This document shows positions 58,601-61,600 of a stretch of DNA of 64,000 nucleotides, in pieces. Origin of the DNA: a virus (Duplodnaviria > Heunggongvirae > Uroviricota > Caudoviricetes); IMG/VR virus record IMGVR_UViG_2627853701_000009. The stretch is one strand, 5' to 3'. Within the stretch, counting starts at the first letter, position 1. The number at the start of each line of letters is the position of its first letter. The position numbers were made by a program.

Positions 58601-61600
58601 GTGCTCGCCTCTTATACAGGCGAAAAAAATTAAAACTGTCTCAGGCCGCATTAGGTAAGCTGGTCAAAGTGGCTCACGTAACAATTTCTCAATGGGAAAG
58701 AGATGAAACACAGCCAGCGGGGAAGAGATTATTCGCACTGAGCCAGGCGCTTCAGTGCTCGCCGACTTGGCTTCTTTTTGGAGATGAAGATAAGCAACCA
58801 GGCGAACCGATCCCAGATAATCAGCCAGTCAATCTGACAGAAGATCAAAAAGAGTTGCTTCAACTGTTCGACGCACTGCCTGAGTCAGAGCAAAAGGCTC
58901 TGTTGTCAGAGATGCGTGCTCGAGTTGAGAATTTCAACAAACTTTTTGAAGAACTACTCAAAGCTCGCAAAAGAAGCGCAAATAAATAACCCCCCTTTTT
59001 TTCGCAACTCTCTGTAATAAAAAGCACAAACTTTCAAATACTTGTGTTTTTTACATCAAGAAGCTTAGGTTTTTCTACACAAAAAGCTTGACCATAACTC
59101 TTAGGCTATTCTAAATTCTACTCATCAAGACACCGCACGGTGTTCTCAGCAAACAGTTCCGCTACCCGGCGTTAAGGGGAAGCAGAGGATTTCTCAGTGG
59201 GCGAGTCAAACATCAGAATGGAAGGCGTCCAGGGATCAGCAAAGAAACAGCGATGGCGCTTTATATTGATATCAGCGCCATTGCCGGACAGGTAAGAGTT
59301 ATCAGAGCGGTAACTAAGCGGTATGCGCCTTTACTTCAGAAAGTCTCTGGTGAGTGCACCGAAGATATTGTCAACGATTTCGTCATCGAACTGCGAGGAC
59401 TCATCTTCAGTTACAAGGTGACCACAATTTTTGCAGATGGCTCCCGCGAAACTGTCAGAGCCCTGCGGCTTAAAGGATGTGTCAAAGACTTTGCCACCAC
59501 ATTCTGGGCAAGAAAACTTGATTGTATTCATAACCAATTTCCTCTCGAGTAACAGACCCCTCAGAGGATACCACCTCGCCTGACGTGGTTAAAAGCAGGC
59601 AACGCTAACCACAAGGAGCCGACATGCAGAAACGAGAACCCGTCATCATCGCGCCAGACTATACCGATGATGAACTTTATGAGTGGATGCACCAGAAAAT
59701 TAAGGCGGTGCAGGACCTGAAATGGGCCAATGAAGCCAGGGCTAAGCAGGCTGAAAATCTGTCCGCTCTGGAGCAGGATATCACCAATCTGGAAAAAGCA
59801 GCGGCATTAAGCATTGCCAGAATGATTACATACCCACGTTAATAGCTAACCAACGAGGCTAATAATGGAATTTAAAGATTTACCAACGCCATTACAGGAA
59901 ATGGCATCGAATATAGTTCGTTCACAACTGGCTACTCTTGACCTTAGTACCGCAGAAAAAGAAACCATCGATAATATGGTTCGTAATGTGCGCAATGCTT
60001 TTTCTGGGCTATATGGTTCTGATAATCAAAAGCAGGAAAGCGATGTTAATAAACGGGTAATTTCTGTTTGCGTGAATGGCCATGTTCTTTCATCAATCAA
60101 AACAGAAACGGCGACAGTCTTCGATTGCCTTTGCATTGTACAGAGCCTTGTTGATGCCCTGTTTCGTTCAGTGAATTTAGAAAATGATGCAAATCTGCGA
60201 GGGCGCATAATAGCACATCCATATGCACATACTTTAGGCTCTGTGGATATCAAAGATCCCACAAATCTTTAATGAAATAGTTAACGCGAATTGTACTTGC
60301 TCTTTCGGTTGCTTTCAGAATACGCGTTGAAACTGCTGGCGGTAATTTGGTATTCCATTTATTAAAATCATGCCCGGGAAAGTACTCTTCGAAAATACTT
60401 TTAACTGCAGACTCGCCTATTGAAATGCTGCTTACCATGCGATTTTGATAAAGGCATTTAGCAATAAGAGTTGATTTTAACATTCACCCTCCTGAGGGTT
60501 GGTAATTAAGGAGTTCTCCACGGGTGAAGTGGAGTGCGTGCGCCGGACACGGGTGAACATCCGGCACTGACAGTTTACTGAAAGGATATTTCTCTGAAAA
60601 GTCAGAGCATAACGCGAAAGCGCACGGCGAGGTTGCTGGTTCATAGATAGCCTGTCGTTAAATTTTCGTCGACCGTGCGCTTCCGGTTGTGGCACTCCGC
60701 GAAATGGCGCAGCGGTAAGTATGGCGGGGTTATTCCTTCCCCGTTGAGGACACCGGGTTGTCAGGTTGACCATACGCTTAAGTGACAACCCCGCTGCAAC
60801 GCCCTCTGTTATCAATTTTCTGGTGACGTTTGGCGGCATCTGTTTGCCCATGAACTGATGTCCGCCCTTTTTAAAGTGAATTTTGTGATGCAGTGAATGC
60901 GGCTAAGCGCACGCGGAACAGTTAAAGCTAAAAACAGTGTTATGGGTGGATTCTCTGTATCCGGCGTTAATTGTTAACTGGTTAACGTCACCTGGAGGCA
61001 CCAGGCACCGCATCACAAAATTCATTGTTGAGGACGCGATAATGGAAACGTTATTACCAAACGTTAATACGTCTGAAGGTTGTTTTGAAATTGGTGTCAC
61101 TATCAGTAACCCTGTATTTACTGAAGATGCCATTAACAAGAGAAAACACGAACGGGAGTTATTAAATAAAATATGCATTCTTTCAATGCTGGCCCGTTTA
61201 CGTCCGATACAAAAAGGATGCTGGCAATGAATACAGCATTTGCACTTGTTCTGACAGTTTTTCTTGTTTCCGGAGAGCCAGTTGATATTGCAGTCAGTGT
61301 TCACAGGACAATGCAGGAGTGTGTGACTGCAGCAACCGAACAGAAAATTCCCGGTAACTGTTACCCCGTCGATAAAGTTATTCACCAGGATAATAACGAA
61401 ATCCCGGCAGGTCTTTAAAACAGTTCCGTAATAAACATCCGATTTCATTCTTATATGCCAGCAATGGCAGGGATTTGTTCACCCTTAAATCTGTAATGAG
61501 GTAAAACAAAATGAGTAAAGTCTTTATTTGCGCCGCCATTCCGGACGAACAGGCAATAAAGGAAGAAGGTGCTGTCGCTGTAGCCACTGCCATTGAAGCC

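What the first reader, a model, noticed from the sequence alone, without database searches (positions are those of the whole stretch)
59331..61040. Uncharacterised minus-strand module with an ORF-poor leader inside the early-left operon
The plus-strand early-left operon is interrupted by a 77-aa minus-strand gene with a consensus AGGAGG SD, preceded by about 400-550 bp with no convincing ORF on either strand. The only upstream reading frame is a 124-aa Arg-rich ORF whose stop overlaps the 77-aa start. Together with the zinc-ribbon gene at 59331-59531, this is where lambdoid phages keep anti-restriction, exclusion and host-takeover genes. It could be a toxin-antitoxin or defence/anti-defence module, or a structured RNA.
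Basis: inference. Interest (0 to 1): 0.55.

Follow-up and report, generated by a model that had tools for sequence, protein, structure and literature searches.

The report
Antisense prophage genes beside DicF RNA
The gene-free stretch is the already known untranslated region that yields the DicF small RNA of an E. coli O157:H7 prophage. The backward-facing 77-residue gene is half of a conserved, uncharacterised gene pair sitting in a swap-prone slot of the prophage's early operon.

Summary
The sequence features are real, but the reading needs splitting.

1. **ORF-poor stretch (60497-61041).** It is not a private leader of the minus-strand gene. It is the plus-strand "long untranslated region containing dicF" of the Qin-type dicBF operon. 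It holds DicF at 60817-60867, the ~190-nt RNase III precursor from about 60680, then dicB and ydfD. This is already known.

2. **124-aa Arg-rich ORF.** It is spurious.

3. **77-aa minus-strand gene.** It is a real gene under purifying selection, with a confident five-helix model and no known fold or family. In eight further genera it is always convergent with, and overlaps by 23-51 nt, a ~78-aa partner. Here that partner is the C-terminal half of the plus-strand 135-aa protein. The two genes form a 634-bp cassette (59863-60496) that K-12 and phage Tritos lack. The site is polymorphic.

4. **Zinc-ribbon gene.** It is a real gene of the ECs_2282 family. It lies behind a conserved antisense promoter-like module that precedes at least 9 unrelated cargo ORFs in at least 120 viral contigs.

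Function is untested. My best guess, at about 0.3, is a lysogen-expressed cargo protein paired with an early-operon antagonist, as in defence with self-immunity or toxin with antidote. Interest is moderate.

The parts
58582..58989 (+). dicA-like repressor of the early-left (dicBF) operon. This is context only. The cro-like dicC lies at 58278-58505 (-).
   Evidence: The ORF is. The homologous PPompW and K-12 records annotate it as dicA.
59331..59531 (-). 66-aa zinc-ribbon gene of the ECs_2282 family, antisense to the operon. RefSeq annotates the plus-strand shadow ORF 59253-59552 here instead.
   Evidence: - NCBIfam NF047912 scores 56.9 bits against a cut-off of 37.
- There are 54 distant homologues of 62-75 aa with 4 invariant Cys.
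- A 51%-identical homologue lies in the same antisense position next to a repressor.
- Differences from that homologue by codon position are 25/17/33, which favours this frame.
- Caveat: the PPompW copies carry a nonsense codon at Lys14.
59565..59600 (-). Conserved antisense promoter-like module. It reads GCCTGC-TTTTAACCACGT-CAGGC-GAG-GTGG-TATCCT: an inverted repeat with the -35-like TTAACC in its loop, followed by an extended -10 (TGgTATCCT). It lies 33 nt upstream of the zinc-ribbon ATG.
   Evidence: - Motif scans.
- Alignment A9 shows the motif in 9 of 10 sequences, covering 8 named genera plus one unassigned metagenome contig, upstream of zinc-ribbon or 77-aa genes.
- The 28-nt core occurs in at least 120 viral contigs. 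It is followed at a fixed 26-36 nt by at least 9 unrelated ORF families.
- It is always antisense to the repressor, ydfC, dicB and the exonuclease (88/88, 34/34, 87/87, 89/89).
- Promoter activity itself is an inference.
59624..59842 (+). ydfC
   Evidence: It is annotated as ydfC in the homologous records and matches phrog_1744.
59863..60496 (.). 634-bp two-gene cassette that is absent from K-12 Qin and phage Tritos. It sits in a polymorphic slot between ydfC and the dicF untranslated region.
   Evidence: - Alignment A1 defines the exact indel.
- 647 of 5426 complete E. coli genomes cover at least 80% of 59560-61060, which requires the cassette.
- Other cassette types share the same flanks.
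59865..60272 (+). 135-aa gene. It combines a conserved N-terminal MEFKDLP domain (~55 aa) with a C-terminal ~78-aa partner domain (from 60036).
   Evidence: - It matches phrog_1363.
- The C-terminal domain is 35-42% identical to the stand-alone 77-80-aa partner proteins of other genera.
- The partner profile finds 126 clusters.
- The N-domain is joined to at least 5 unrelated C-termini.
- The AF2 model is poor, with pLDDT 43.
60250..60483 (-). 77-aa gene, convergent with the 135-aa gene and overlapping it by 23 nt. It is soluble and helical, and no known fold matches it.
   Evidence: - Homologues are.
- dN/dS is 0.08-0.38.
- AF2 gives pLDDT 96.8 with five helices.
- The only BFVD match is its own family.
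- Pfam, PADLOC, NCBIfam and PDB sequence searches give no match.
- Convergent pairing holds in Serratia, Klebsiella, Dickeya, Proteus, Photorhabdus, Hafnia, Citrobacter and Yersinia.
60484..60496 (-). Shine-Dalgarno segment CTCAGGAGGGTGA at the right end of the cassette. The same junction precedes unrelated antisense ORFs in other cassette types.
   Evidence: A second junction type, ATGGAGGATAAA, appears in L021 and L025.
60497..61041 (+).
   Evidence: - It is 95-99% identical to K-12 and Tritos, which lack the cassette.
- The plus-strand RNA fold has z = -3.64.
60680..60867 (+). Inferred ~190-nt long DicF species, whose 5' end is made by RNase III. Its 5' end falls in the 3' arm of a predicted 10-bp helix (60618-60627 / 60673-60682).
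   Evidence: - The 190-nt and 53-nt species and their RNase III and RNase E dependence are described in PMC10448788.
- I mapped them here by homology and folding.
- The segment 60686-60808 is shared with the P1/P7 ban leader (annotated "dicF-like region") and with cdtI and Stx2c phages.
- The position in this window is inferred.
60817..60867 (+). DicF sRNA, an allele with an altered terminator hairpin.
   Evidence: - Rfam RF00039 scores 43.5 bits with E = 2.1e-7, below the gathering score of 48.
- The first 20 nt are identical to K-12 DicF.
- The hairpin folds at -17.3 kcal/mol and is followed by a U run.
- This allele is at least 99% identical in 534 E. coli records.
- DicF is annotated at the homologous position in phage Tritos.
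60477..60851 (-). 124-aa Arg-rich ORF. It is spurious and lies antisense to the DicF precursor.
   Evidence: - No family matches it.
- Its ATG exists only because of this window's DicF hairpin variant.
- The frame is broken by stops or frameshifts in L017, L019 and L020.
61042..61418 (+). dicB (61042-61230) and ydfD/DUF1482 (61227-61418), the genes downstream of the untranslated region.
   Evidence: Pfam DicB E = 1.7e-37 and DUF1482 E = 3.7e-25.

Best explanation
**Anatomy (about 0.9 sure).** The window holds the immunity and early-left region of a Qin/PPompW-type lambdoid prophage of E. coli O157:H7.

- Its plus-strand operon is the known dicBF operon. [quoted passage not shown]
- The ORF-poor stretch is that untranslated region.
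- Two antisense cargo genes have been inserted into the operon.
  - **Slot 1.** A zinc-ribbon gene lies directly behind a conserved promoter-like module. The module points against the operon, towards the repressor gene.
  - **Slot 2.** A 634-bp cassette lies between ydfC and the dicF untranslated region. Its plus-strand gene (a conserved N-domain plus a ~78-aa partner domain) and its minus-strand 77-aa gene converge and overlap by 23 nt. The two genes are a cognate pair that travels together across Enterobacterales prophages.

**Mechanism (inferred, about 0.3).**
- The 77-aa protein is made independently of the early-left promoter. Its gene faces against that promoter and, in other genera, has its own extended -10 promoter-like motif, so it can be expressed in the lysogen.
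- The partner is made only when the early-left promoter fires, at induction or on infection by a related phage. It then neutralises the 77-aa protein by binding it. Convergent transcription across the 23-nt overlap and the whole 77-aa gene silences its mRNA at the same time.
- This is the logic of a prophage defence or exclusion factor with cognate self-immunity, or equivalently a toxin with an antidote supplied early in lytic growth.
- What the 77-aa protein targets is unknown.
For: **dicF untranslated region**
- Rfam finds DicF.
- Synteny and 95% identity with K-12 ydfC-dicF-dicB, and a DicF annotation in phage Tritos.
- Published processing and the published description of a "long untranslated region" (PMC10448788; PMC5069750).

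**Cassette**
- An exact 634-bp indel relative to Tritos and K-12.

**The 77-aa gene is real**
-.

**Cognate pairing**
- Every locus outside Escherichia reached from either gene showed the convergent, overlapping pair: 15 loci in 8 genera.
- The partner domain is more widespread than the 77-aa protein, 126 clusters against 33. It also occurs without it, in the 201-aa variant. This is the asymmetry expected if the partner is the antidote or anti-defence half.
- The partner is predicted to be poorly ordered on its own (pLDDT 43), whereas the 77-aa protein is compact (pLDDT 96.8).

**Independent expression**
- The conserved region of the module ends at the -10, and the cargo-specific UTRs differ.
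- Its orientation is always antisense to the early operon.

**Arms-race signature**
- The slot is polymorphic, with at least 5 C-terminal classes and at least 4 different antisense ORFs sharing identical flanks.
Against: - There is no expression or phenotype data.
- In this window the conserved extended -10 motif is upstream of the zinc-ribbon gene, not the 77-aa gene. Only the hairpin part survives at 60542-60565. The best minus-strand promoter candidates are weak: TTTTCA-17-TAAACT ending near 60572, and TTAACA-16-GAGAAT at 60977-60950.
- No match to any PADLOC, Pfam or NCBIfam family or to any solved structure.
- Net charges of the two proteins are not conserved, so there is no electrostatic hint of binding.
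- An E. coli variant joins the same partner domain to a different C-terminal extension and a different 63-aa antisense ORF. The pairing is therefore not absolute.
- The polarity, meaning which protein is the active one, is not determined.
Confidence: 0.4

Rival explanations
1. **Reversed polarity: an effector-immunity pair laid out like a pore-forming colicin operon.** The early-operon protein, with its conserved N-domain and variable C-domain, would be an early lytic effector such as a host take-over factor or toxin. The antisense small protein would be its constitutively made antidote, protecting the lysogen from leaky early transcription.
For: - A conserved N-terminus with at least 5 unrelated C-termini, each followed by a different small convergent ORF, is the layout of polymorphic effector-immunity loci.
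- Spontaneous derepression of the dicBF promoter in a subpopulation is documented (PMC10448788 abstract).
- From my own knowledge, immunity genes of pore-forming colicins are transcribed convergently from their own promoter, between the colicin gene and the lysis gene.
Against: - The partner domain occurs without the 77-aa gene, in the 201-aa variant. An effector without its immunity gene is not expected.
- Outside E. coli the partner has no N-domain and is only 75-80 aa.
- No toxin-like domain was detected.
- The partner looks disordered rather than enzyme-like.
Confidence: 0.2
2. **Mainly regulatory.** The minus-strand units would exist to send transcription, and hence antisense RNA, against the early-left operon. 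This would damp leaky expression of the toxic DicF and DicB products by transcriptional interference and RNase III cleavage. The encoded proteins would be secondary.
For: - The promoter-like module always points against the early operon.
- A conserved 23-51-nt 3' overlap.
- A minus-strand transcript reaching the 77-aa gene from far upstream would be antisense to the DicF precursor.
- The dicBF products are toxic and under layered control (PMC10448788).
Against: - The 77-aa protein sequence is under clear purifying selection and its length is fixed.
- The zinc ribbon keeps four invariant Cys.
- Cargo ORFs are exchanged while their reading frames stay intact. These facts show that the proteins matter.
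Confidence: 0.12
3. **The first reader's version.** The ORF-poor stretch would be the long structured 5' leader of the 77-aa mRNA, transcribed from a minus-strand promoter near 60950-60977, possibly doubling as an anti-DicF RNA.
For: - The only 9/12 sigma-70-like match on the minus strand upstream of the gene is at 60977-60950.
- The minus strand also folds better than shuffled sequence, with z = -3.24.
- The same flank, including the SD, precedes four different antisense ORFs.
- An SD-sequestering helix appears in two co-varying versions.
Against: - The stretch is equally conserved in K-12 and Tritos, which have no antisense gene and no SD.
- The -10 of that candidate promoter is not conserved in L025.
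- The stretch contains a bona fide plus-strand sRNA and its mapped precursor.
- Helices are strand-symmetric, so the minus-strand fold score proves nothing.
Confidence: 0.1
4. **A classical addiction-type toxin-antitoxin module (type II or type I).** It would stabilise the prophage.
For: - Two small, tightly linked genes.
- One is compact and one is poorly ordered.
- Overlapping transcripts could provide antisense control.
- A hok/sok locus lies elsewhere in the same prophage.
Against: - The genes are convergent, not a co-transcribed bicistron.
- No TA superfamily matches.
- The 77-aa protein has no membrane segment; the highest 19-residue hydropathy is 0.59. It is therefore not a type I toxin.
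- The site is a swap-prone slot with unrelated cargo, which fits accessory cargo better than addiction.
Confidence: 0.08

Closest known systems
dicBF operon of the Qin cryptic prophage of E. coli K-12 (dicA / ydfABC / dicF / dicB / ydfD)
   Same: - Same gene order, same repressor type, and about 95% DNA identity over ydfC, the untranslated region, DicF and dicB.
- The DicF seed is identical.
[quoted passage not shown]
   Different: - This copy carries a zinc-ribbon gene on the opposite strand in place of ydfA and ydfB.
- It carries a 634-bp two-gene insertion between ydfC and the untranslated region.
- Its DicF allele has a rebuilt terminator hairpin that drops the Rfam score below threshold.
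Hotspots of variable anti-phage cargo in P2-like phages and P4-like satellites (Rousset et al. 2022, PMC9122126)
   Same: Conserved flanks enclose interchangeable, mostly uncharacterised cargo genes in a temperate phage (abstract). Here the flanks are identical and at least 4 cassette types occupy slot 2, while at least 9 cargo families follow the slot-1 module.
   Different: - This is a lambdoid early-left operon, not P2 or P4.
- The cargo is tiny, at 63-148 aa.
- It is oriented antisense to the operon.
- No cargo matches a known defence family.
- No defence activity is shown.
BstA-type prophage defence with cognate self-immunity (Owen et al. 2021, PMC8585504)
   Same: The proposed logic is the same. 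A prophage factor close to the repressor locus acts against other phages, and the prophage carries its own antidote for its lytic cycle (title and abstract).
   Different: - There is no sequence or structural relation.
- From my own knowledge, BstA is a single large protein and its self-immunity element is a DNA site.
- Here the system would be two small proteins from convergent overlapping genes, and nothing has been tested.
Pore-forming colicin operons (own knowledge): SOS-induced colicin gene, convergent immunity gene with its own promoter, then a lysis gene
   Same: The layout matches. An inducible promoter drives a variable effector-like gene, followed by a convergent small gene, followed by downstream lethal functions (DicF, DicB and the lysis protein YdfD, as annotated).
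   Different: Colicin immunity proteins are membrane proteins, whereas the 77-aa protein has no membrane segment. There is no homology. This is an analogy only.
Lambdoid 'morons' and exclusion genes near the immunity region, such as lambda rexAB and sieB or P22 sieA (own knowledge)
   Same: These are accessory genes next to the repressor, with expression uncoupled from the lytic operon. They are present in some sister phages and absent in others.
   Different: The exclusion genes named above are not, to my knowledge, convergent overlapping pairs. The promoter-like module shared by many unrelated cargos was not described in the papers I could search.

Membership tests
DicF RNA (Rfam RF00039) | Covariance-model score at or above the gathering score (48 bits) | tested here: not met
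   The score is 43.5 bits with E = 2.1e-7 and a full-length match to model positions 1-52. The shortfall comes from the altered hairpin loop.
DicF RNA (Rfam RF00039) | 5' single-stranded targeting region identical or near-identical to K-12 DicF | tested here: met
   The first 20 nt, TTTCTGGTGACGTTTGGCGG, are identical to K-12.
DicF RNA (Rfam RF00039) | 3' Rho-independent terminator hairpin followed by a U run | tested here: met
   The hairpin folds at -17.3 kcal/mol (z = -2.96) and is followed by UUUUU. The K-12 hairpin folds at -15.9 kcal/mol.
DicF RNA (Rfam RF00039) | Position inside a DicA-type repressed operon, between ydfC and dicB | tested here: met
DicF RNA (Rfam RF00039) | [quoted passage not shown] | not testable with these tools
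   This is published for K-12. Here there is only a predicted long helix around the inferred cleavage position near 60680.
Type II toxin-antitoxin module | Two co-directional, co-transcribed small genes | tested here: not met
   The genes converge and overlap at their 3' ends in every locus examined.
Type II toxin-antitoxin module | Toxin or antitoxin belongs to a known superfamily | tested here: not met
Type II toxin-antitoxin module | Toxicity of one protein, neutralised by the other | not testable with these tools
   This needs expression experiments.
Type I toxin-antitoxin (hok/sok-like) | Small hydrophobic membrane toxin | tested here: not met
   The highest 19-residue Kyte-Doolittle mean is 0.59 and GRAVY is -0.13. 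The AF2 model is a soluble five-helix bundle.
Known anti-phage defence systems (PADLOC-DB 2.0) | Profile match of at least one component | tested here: not met
   The 77-aa, 135-aa and 124-aa products gave no hit. The zinc ribbon gave only sub-threshold zinc-finger noise.
Phage moron (independent accessory transcription unit inserted in a phage operon) | Present or absent between otherwise collinear sister phages | tested here: met
   A 634-bp indel separates this window from Tritos and K-12. Phages 813R8 and 640R1 carry the zinc-ribbon segment yet their match to 59200-61500 is about 640 bp short, consistent with the cassette being absent.
Phage moron (independent accessory transcription unit inserted in a phage operon) | Own promoter | tested here: inconclusive
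   - A conserved extended -10 module precedes the zinc-ribbon gene here and the 77-aa genes of other genera.
- It is absent upstream of the 77-aa gene in this window.
- No transcript data were available.
Phage moron (independent accessory transcription unit inserted in a phage operon) | Own terminator | tested here: inconclusive
   The only minus-strand terminator-like site is weak, with 5 pairs, and lies at 59819-59802 inside ydfC.
Polymorphic effector-immunity cassette | Conserved N-terminal region joined to unrelated C-terminal domains | tested here: met
   The MEFKDLP domain is joined to at least 5 C-terminal classes.
Polymorphic effector-immunity cassette | Adjacent small gene that changes together with the C-terminal domain | tested here: inconclusive
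   Different antisense ORFs (77, 63, 73, 69 and 27+ aa) accompany different C-termini. Only the 77-aa ORF is shown to be a conserved gene. One of the others is frameshifted in a sister locus (L024).
Polymorphic effector-immunity cassette | Recognisable toxin domain in the variable part | tested here: not met
   Pfam found no family for any variable C-terminus that was tested.
ECs_2282 family putative zinc-binding protein (NCBIfam NF047912) | Profile score above the curated cut-off, and four Cys in two CxxC pairs | tested here: met
   The score is 56.9 bits against a cut-off of 37. C8, C11, C33 and C36 are invariant in 24 aligned relatives.

The most novel reading that the evidence does not exclude
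The 77-aa protein and its ~78-aa partner would be a new two-protein prophage system, encoded by convergent overlapping genes.

- The 77-aa protein would be a lysogen-expressed exclusion or abortive-infection factor with a new small helical fold.
- The partner, delivered by the early-left operon, would be its cognate inhibitor, giving both self-immunity and anti-defence.
- More broadly, the promoter-like module GCCTGC-TTTTAACCAC-N-TCAGGC-N3-GGTGGTATCYT would mark a previously undescribed cargo slot next to the immunity region of Enterobacterales lambdoid prophages, pointing against the early operon. That slot would hold a reservoir of small uncharacterised anti-phage or host-modulating proteins: a 106-aa membrane protein, two zinc-ribbon families, the 77-aa family and others.
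Probability: 0.25. Interest if true: 0.7.

Novelty: new variant of a known kind. Interest (0 to 1): 0.45.

Why it matters
**What is ordinary.** The ORF-poor stretch is the textbook DicF region and adds nothing new, apart from a common O157 DicF allele with a rebuilt terminator.

**What is worth following up.** There is a set of tiny, conserved genes with no assigned function that face against the early operon right next to the immunity switch.
- They include a strictly linked convergent pair with no known fold.
- They include a portable promoter-like module that precedes many unrelated cargos.

Genes in this position in other temperate phages often decide which phages can superinfect a lysogen, or how toxic early genes are kept in check.

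**If the defence/self-immunity reading holds:**
- It would give an easily testable family of very small phage-exclusion proteins and their inhibitors in E. coli O157, Klebsiella, Serratia, Yersinia and relatives.
- It would give a simple sequence tag, the promoter module, for mining more of them.

**Annotation errors.** RefSeq calls a shadow ORF instead of the zinc-ribbon gene, and DicF is not annotated in the O157 record fetched here.

Tried and rejected
1. **124-aa Arg-rich ORF as a gene: rejected.** No family matches it. Its start codon is created by this window's DicF hairpin variant, and the frame is broken in three related loci.

2. **A plus- or minus-strand pseudogene explaining 60497-61041: no support.** The segment is conserved as non-coding sequence in thousands of genomes and holds a known sRNA.

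3. **Known defence or TA families.** Pfam, PHROGs, PADLOC and NCBIfam gave only unnamed PHROG families.

4. **Fold and sequence searches.**
   - The AFDB50 library was not available.
   - The PDB profile search of the 77-aa alignment returned nothing. The partner alignment returned a single hit at E = 1.

5. **Structure of the 135-aa protein.** The model had pLDDT 43 and is unusable.

6. **Charge complementarity or a membrane segment as a functional hint.** Neither is conserved or present.

7. **A sigma-70 promoter for the 77-aa gene in this window.** Only weak candidates were found.

8. **Second 77-aa ORF in locus L010.** It is unrelated and is a chance ORF.

9. **Genome-collection scan for more 77-aa loci.** It returned only 4 loci, because the collection holds one genome per species.

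10. **Literature.** I found no paper on the cassette, the ECs_2282 family or the promoter-like module.

11. **Zinc ribbon and 77-aa gene as one module: rejected for this window.** Phages 813R8 and 640R1 carry the zinc-ribbon segment, but their match falls about 640 bp short, consistent with no cassette. The distant 77-aa loci examined carry no ECs_2282-type zinc-ribbon gene at the equivalent position; L009 has only a weak Lar-like 69-aa ORF about 3.7 kb away.

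
Full report
**Where we are**

The segment 59560-61060 is 99.9% identical to E. coli O157:H7 strain PV15-279. Parts of it occur in 4650 of 5426 complete E. coli genomes. The surrounding genes are as follows:
- a cro-like dicC (58278-58505, -);
- a dicA-like repressor (58582-58989, +);
- on the plus strand, ydfC (59624-59842), a 135-aa ORF (59865-60272), dicB (61042-61230; Pfam DicB E = 1.7e-37), ydfD/DUF1482 (61227-61418) and an 823-aa exonuclease.

This is the early-left, dicBF-type operon of a Qin/PPompW-like lambdoid prophage.

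**The observation**

- The 77-aa ORF is at 60250-60483 (-), with AGGAGG at 60488-60493.
- The 558 bp up to dicB contain no convincing ORF.
- The 124-aa ORF is at 60477-60851 (-), and its stop overlaps the 77-aa start.
- The CxxC...CxxC ORF is at 59331-59531 (-).

**The ORF-poor stretch is the dicF untranslated region (plus strand)**

- Rfam finds DicF at 60818-60867 (+) with 43.5 bits and E = 2.1e-7 over the full model length. This is just under the gathering score of 48.
- The first 20 nt equal K-12 DicF. The terminator hairpin has been rebuilt, folds at -17.3 kcal/mol and is followed by a U run. This allele is at least 99% identical in 534 E. coli records.
- K-12 Qin and phage Tritos have the same ydfC / ~340-nt spacer / DicF / dicB arrangement at about 95% identity. 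Tritos annotates DicF at the homologous position.
[quoted passage not shown] It also shows that a 190-nt species (5' end made by RNase III) and the 53-nt DicF (5' end made by RNase E) are cut from the polycistronic RNA, with no internal promoter found on that strand (PMC10448788).
- By homology, the 190-nt species would start near 60680. That position lies in the 3' arm of a predicted 10-bp helix, 60618-60627 / 60673-60682.
- The part 60686-60808 is also found in the leader of the P1/P7 ban operon, annotated there as "dicF-like region", and in cdtI and Stx2c phages.
- The plus-strand RNA folds better than shuffled sequence, with z = -3.64. The minus strand does too, with z = -3.24, as expected for strand-symmetric helices, so folding alone does not assign a strand.

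**The 124-aa ORF is spurious**

It lies antisense to this RNA. Its ATG is created by the variant hairpin, copies with the canonical DicF lack that start, and three related loci break the frame. No family matches it.

**The 77-aa gene and its true partner**

Phage Tritos and K-12 lack exactly 59863-60496, a 634-bp block. The block runs from 2 nt before the ATG of the 135-aa ORF to the SD of the 77-aa ORF. Its two genes converge and overlap by 23 nt.

The 77-aa gene is real:
- It has 33 homologue clusters at 55-72% identity, almost all exactly 77 aa. They come from Klebsiella, Serratia, Dickeya, Yersinia, Xenorhabdus, Salmonella and Morganella.
- dN/dS is 0.08-0.38, with synonymous sites near saturation.
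- AlphaFold gives a confident five-helix model with pLDDT 96.8.
- Pfam, PADLOC, NCBIfam and a PDB profile search give no match.
- It has no membrane segment.

In every locus from other genera, the 77/78-aa gene is convergent with a 75-86-aa gene (156 aa in Yersinia, where a ClpX-type zinc finger is fused to it) and overlaps it by 23-51 nt.
- This held whether I started from the 77-aa protein (Serratia, Klebsiella, Dickeya, Proteus, Photorhabdus) or from the partner (Hafnia, Citrobacter, Yersinia).
- The pair lies just downstream of the repressor, and the partner points in the early-left direction.
- The partner is homologous to residues 58-135 of the window's 135-aa protein, at 35-42% identity.

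The partner domain is more widespread than the 77-aa protein.
- It has 126 clusters against 33.
- It can be fused to a ClpX-type C4 zinc finger (Yersinia) or, in E. coli, to the ~55-aa MEFKDLP N-domain.
- On its own it models poorly, with pLDDT 43.
- An E. coli variant of 201 aa keeps the partner domain but continues into a different C-terminus, and it faces a different 63-aa antisense ORF.

**A polymorphic slot**

Other E. coli Qin-like prophages carry other cassettes at the same place. Each has a plus-strand gene that begins with the same MEFKDLP domain and continues into one of at least 5 unrelated C-termini. Each is followed by a different convergent small ORF.

Four cassette types end at the identical junction CTCAGGAGGGTGAA-(0-4 nt)-ATG on the minus strand. 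Two others use a second junction, ATGGAGGATAAA-ATG. Of the antisense ORFs, only the 77-aa one is shown here to be a conserved gene. 647 genomes carry the window's version.

**The zinc ribbon and a portable promoter-like module**

The minus-strand 66-aa ORF passes the NCBIfam ECs_2282 zinc-binding family cut-off, 56.9 bits against 37. It has 54 distant relatives of 62-75 aa with four invariant Cys.

RefSeq annotates the plus-strand ORF 59253-59552 instead.
- That ORF stays open even in a 51%-identical relative.
- Differences by codon position (25/17/33 in the zinc-ribbon frame) favour the zinc ribbon.
- A 1-nt indel changes the N-terminus of the plus-strand ORF between strains.
- Caveat: the PPompW copies have a nonsense codon in the zinc-ribbon frame.

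The motif GCCTGC-TTTTAACCACGT-CAGGC-GAG-GTGG-TATCCT lies 33 nt upstream of the zinc-ribbon ATG, at 59600-59565 on the minus strand. It has a -35-like TTAACC, a 16-nt spacer and an extended -10.
- The same motif precedes the 77/78-aa genes of Serratia, Klebsiella, Proteus, Photorhabdus, Hafnia, Citrobacter and Yersinia. It also precedes the zinc-ribbon homologue of L031. Its inverted repeat co-varies: GCCTG/CAGGC against GCCGG/CCGGC.
- Conservation stops at the -10. A cargo-specific UTR with its own SD follows, and at a fixed 26-36 nt an ORF begins. The ORFs fall into at least 9 unrelated families: a 106-aa membrane protein (45 loci), this zinc ribbon (28), a 66-aa protein (19), another zinc ribbon (9), the 77-aa family (1) and others. 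All are of unknown function.
- The module always points against the repressor (88/88), ydfC (34/34), dicB (87/87) and the exonuclease (89/89). It points with cro (62/62).

This is what a promoter with exchangeable cargo looks like, but promoter activity is an inference.

In this window the 77-aa gene does not have the motif. Only the hairpin part survives at 60542-60565, inside the dicF untranslated region. The remaining minus-strand candidates are weak. How the E. coli copy is transcribed is therefore open.

**Most likely working**

- **Shown.** The untranslated region belongs to DicF, the 77-aa and partner genes are a conserved linked pair, and the slot is polymorphic.
- **Inferred.** The 77-aa protein is made independently of the early-left promoter. 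The partner is made only when that promoter fires, and it antagonises the 77-aa protein. Convergent transcription would then silence the 77-aa mRNA.

This is the logic of prophage defence with self-immunity (compare PMC8585504) in a phage cargo hotspot (compare PMC9122126). I put this mechanism at about 0.3.

**Comparison and verdict**

- The DicF part is already known.
- The cassette and the promoter-like module match no described family, and I found no paper on them.
- They fit the known kind "moron or cargo hotspot next to the immunity region", with unusual features: tiny proteins, convergent overlap, antisense orientation and a shared portable promoter-like module.
- Hence the rating: a new variant of a known kind, of moderate interest.

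Noticed in passing
window 60817-60867: This window's DicF allele keeps the K-12 seed but has a different terminator stem-loop that still folds well. The allele is at least 99% identical in 534 E. coli records and 80-90% identical in about 3800 others. The variant loop also creates the ATG of the spurious 124-aa ORF.
   Followed up: yes
window 60856-61061; L006 3842-3961; L007 2249-2456: The region between DicF and dicB gives weak matches to Rfam STnc100 (31-33 bits against a gathering score of 47). It contains a near-invariant hairpin, CCTGG-AGGCA-CCAGG. A full STnc100 (175 bits) lies elsewhere in the window. I did not explore what this conserved dicB leader element does.
   Followed up: no
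window 48315-48926: Rfam gathering-level hits form a cluster: AgvB anti-GcvB sRNA (48315-48374, +), STnc100 (48376-48584, -) and two tRNAs (48697-48770 and 48854-48926, -). This is a typical late-region RNA cluster of an O157 prophage.
   Followed up: no
window 53553-53702 (-): A sok antitoxin RNA scores 103.9 bits in Rfam, so a hok/sok-type type I toxin-antitoxin locus lies in the same window.
   Followed up: no
window 59253-59552 (+) versus 59331-59531 (-): RefSeq/PGAP and the phage records annotate the plus-strand ORF (99 or 118 aa, depending on a 1-nt indel near 59204) rather than the ECs_2282-family zinc ribbon on the other strand. Both frames stay open even in a 51%-diverged relative (L031). 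In PPompW phages the zinc-ribbon frame carries a nonsense codon at Lys14. Dual coding is not excluded.
   Followed up: partly
L006 (phage P1) 2501-2654; also phage P7: The leader of the P1/P7 ban operon lies just downstream of the C1-controlled Pban promoter. It shares about 76-81% identity with the 5' part of the 190-nt DicF precursor and is annotated "dicF-like region". The precursor module is therefore older and more mobile than the Qin context.
   Followed up: partly
window 60484-60527 (-); L021 3320-3385 (-): In both junction types, the SD of the antisense gene can pair with a segment about 30 nt upstream: UUCACCC/GGGUGAA here and CUCCAUU/AAUGGAG in L021 and L025. Both arms change together. 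The local fold z-scores are not significant, and the helix would form on either strand.
   Followed up: partly
L036 2001-2471 (Yersinia); P0286, P0335-P0337: Some partner-domain proteins carry an N-terminal ClpX-type C4 zinc finger (PF06689). This may hint at a link to ClpX-dependent recognition or proteolysis.
   Followed up: no
L040 and 44 other IMG/VR loci: The commonest cargo behind the promoter-like module is a 106-aa protein whose sequence is dominated by long hydrophobic stretches. It starts MSQPPINPLKNMKIDYWYK and has no Pfam, PHROG or NCBIfam match. It looks like a candidate superinfection-exclusion type membrane protein.
   Followed up: partly
L013 3874-3922 (-) (Klebsiella); L007 2209-2259: DicF-like RNAs (Rfam 29.9 and 35.6 bits, below threshold) lie immediately next to the 77-aa/partner cassette in Klebsiella and in a Stx1c phage. 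Several E. coli loci (L017, L021, L025) carry DicF copies with a different 5' targeting region.
   Followed up: no
window 57743-58294 (-): The gene next to the cro-like dicC is annotated in RefSeq as a "toxin YdaT family protein". Related loci also carry paaA2/parE between the repressor and ydfA (L018, L021). The immunity-proximal region therefore collects several toxin-like modules.
   Followed up: no
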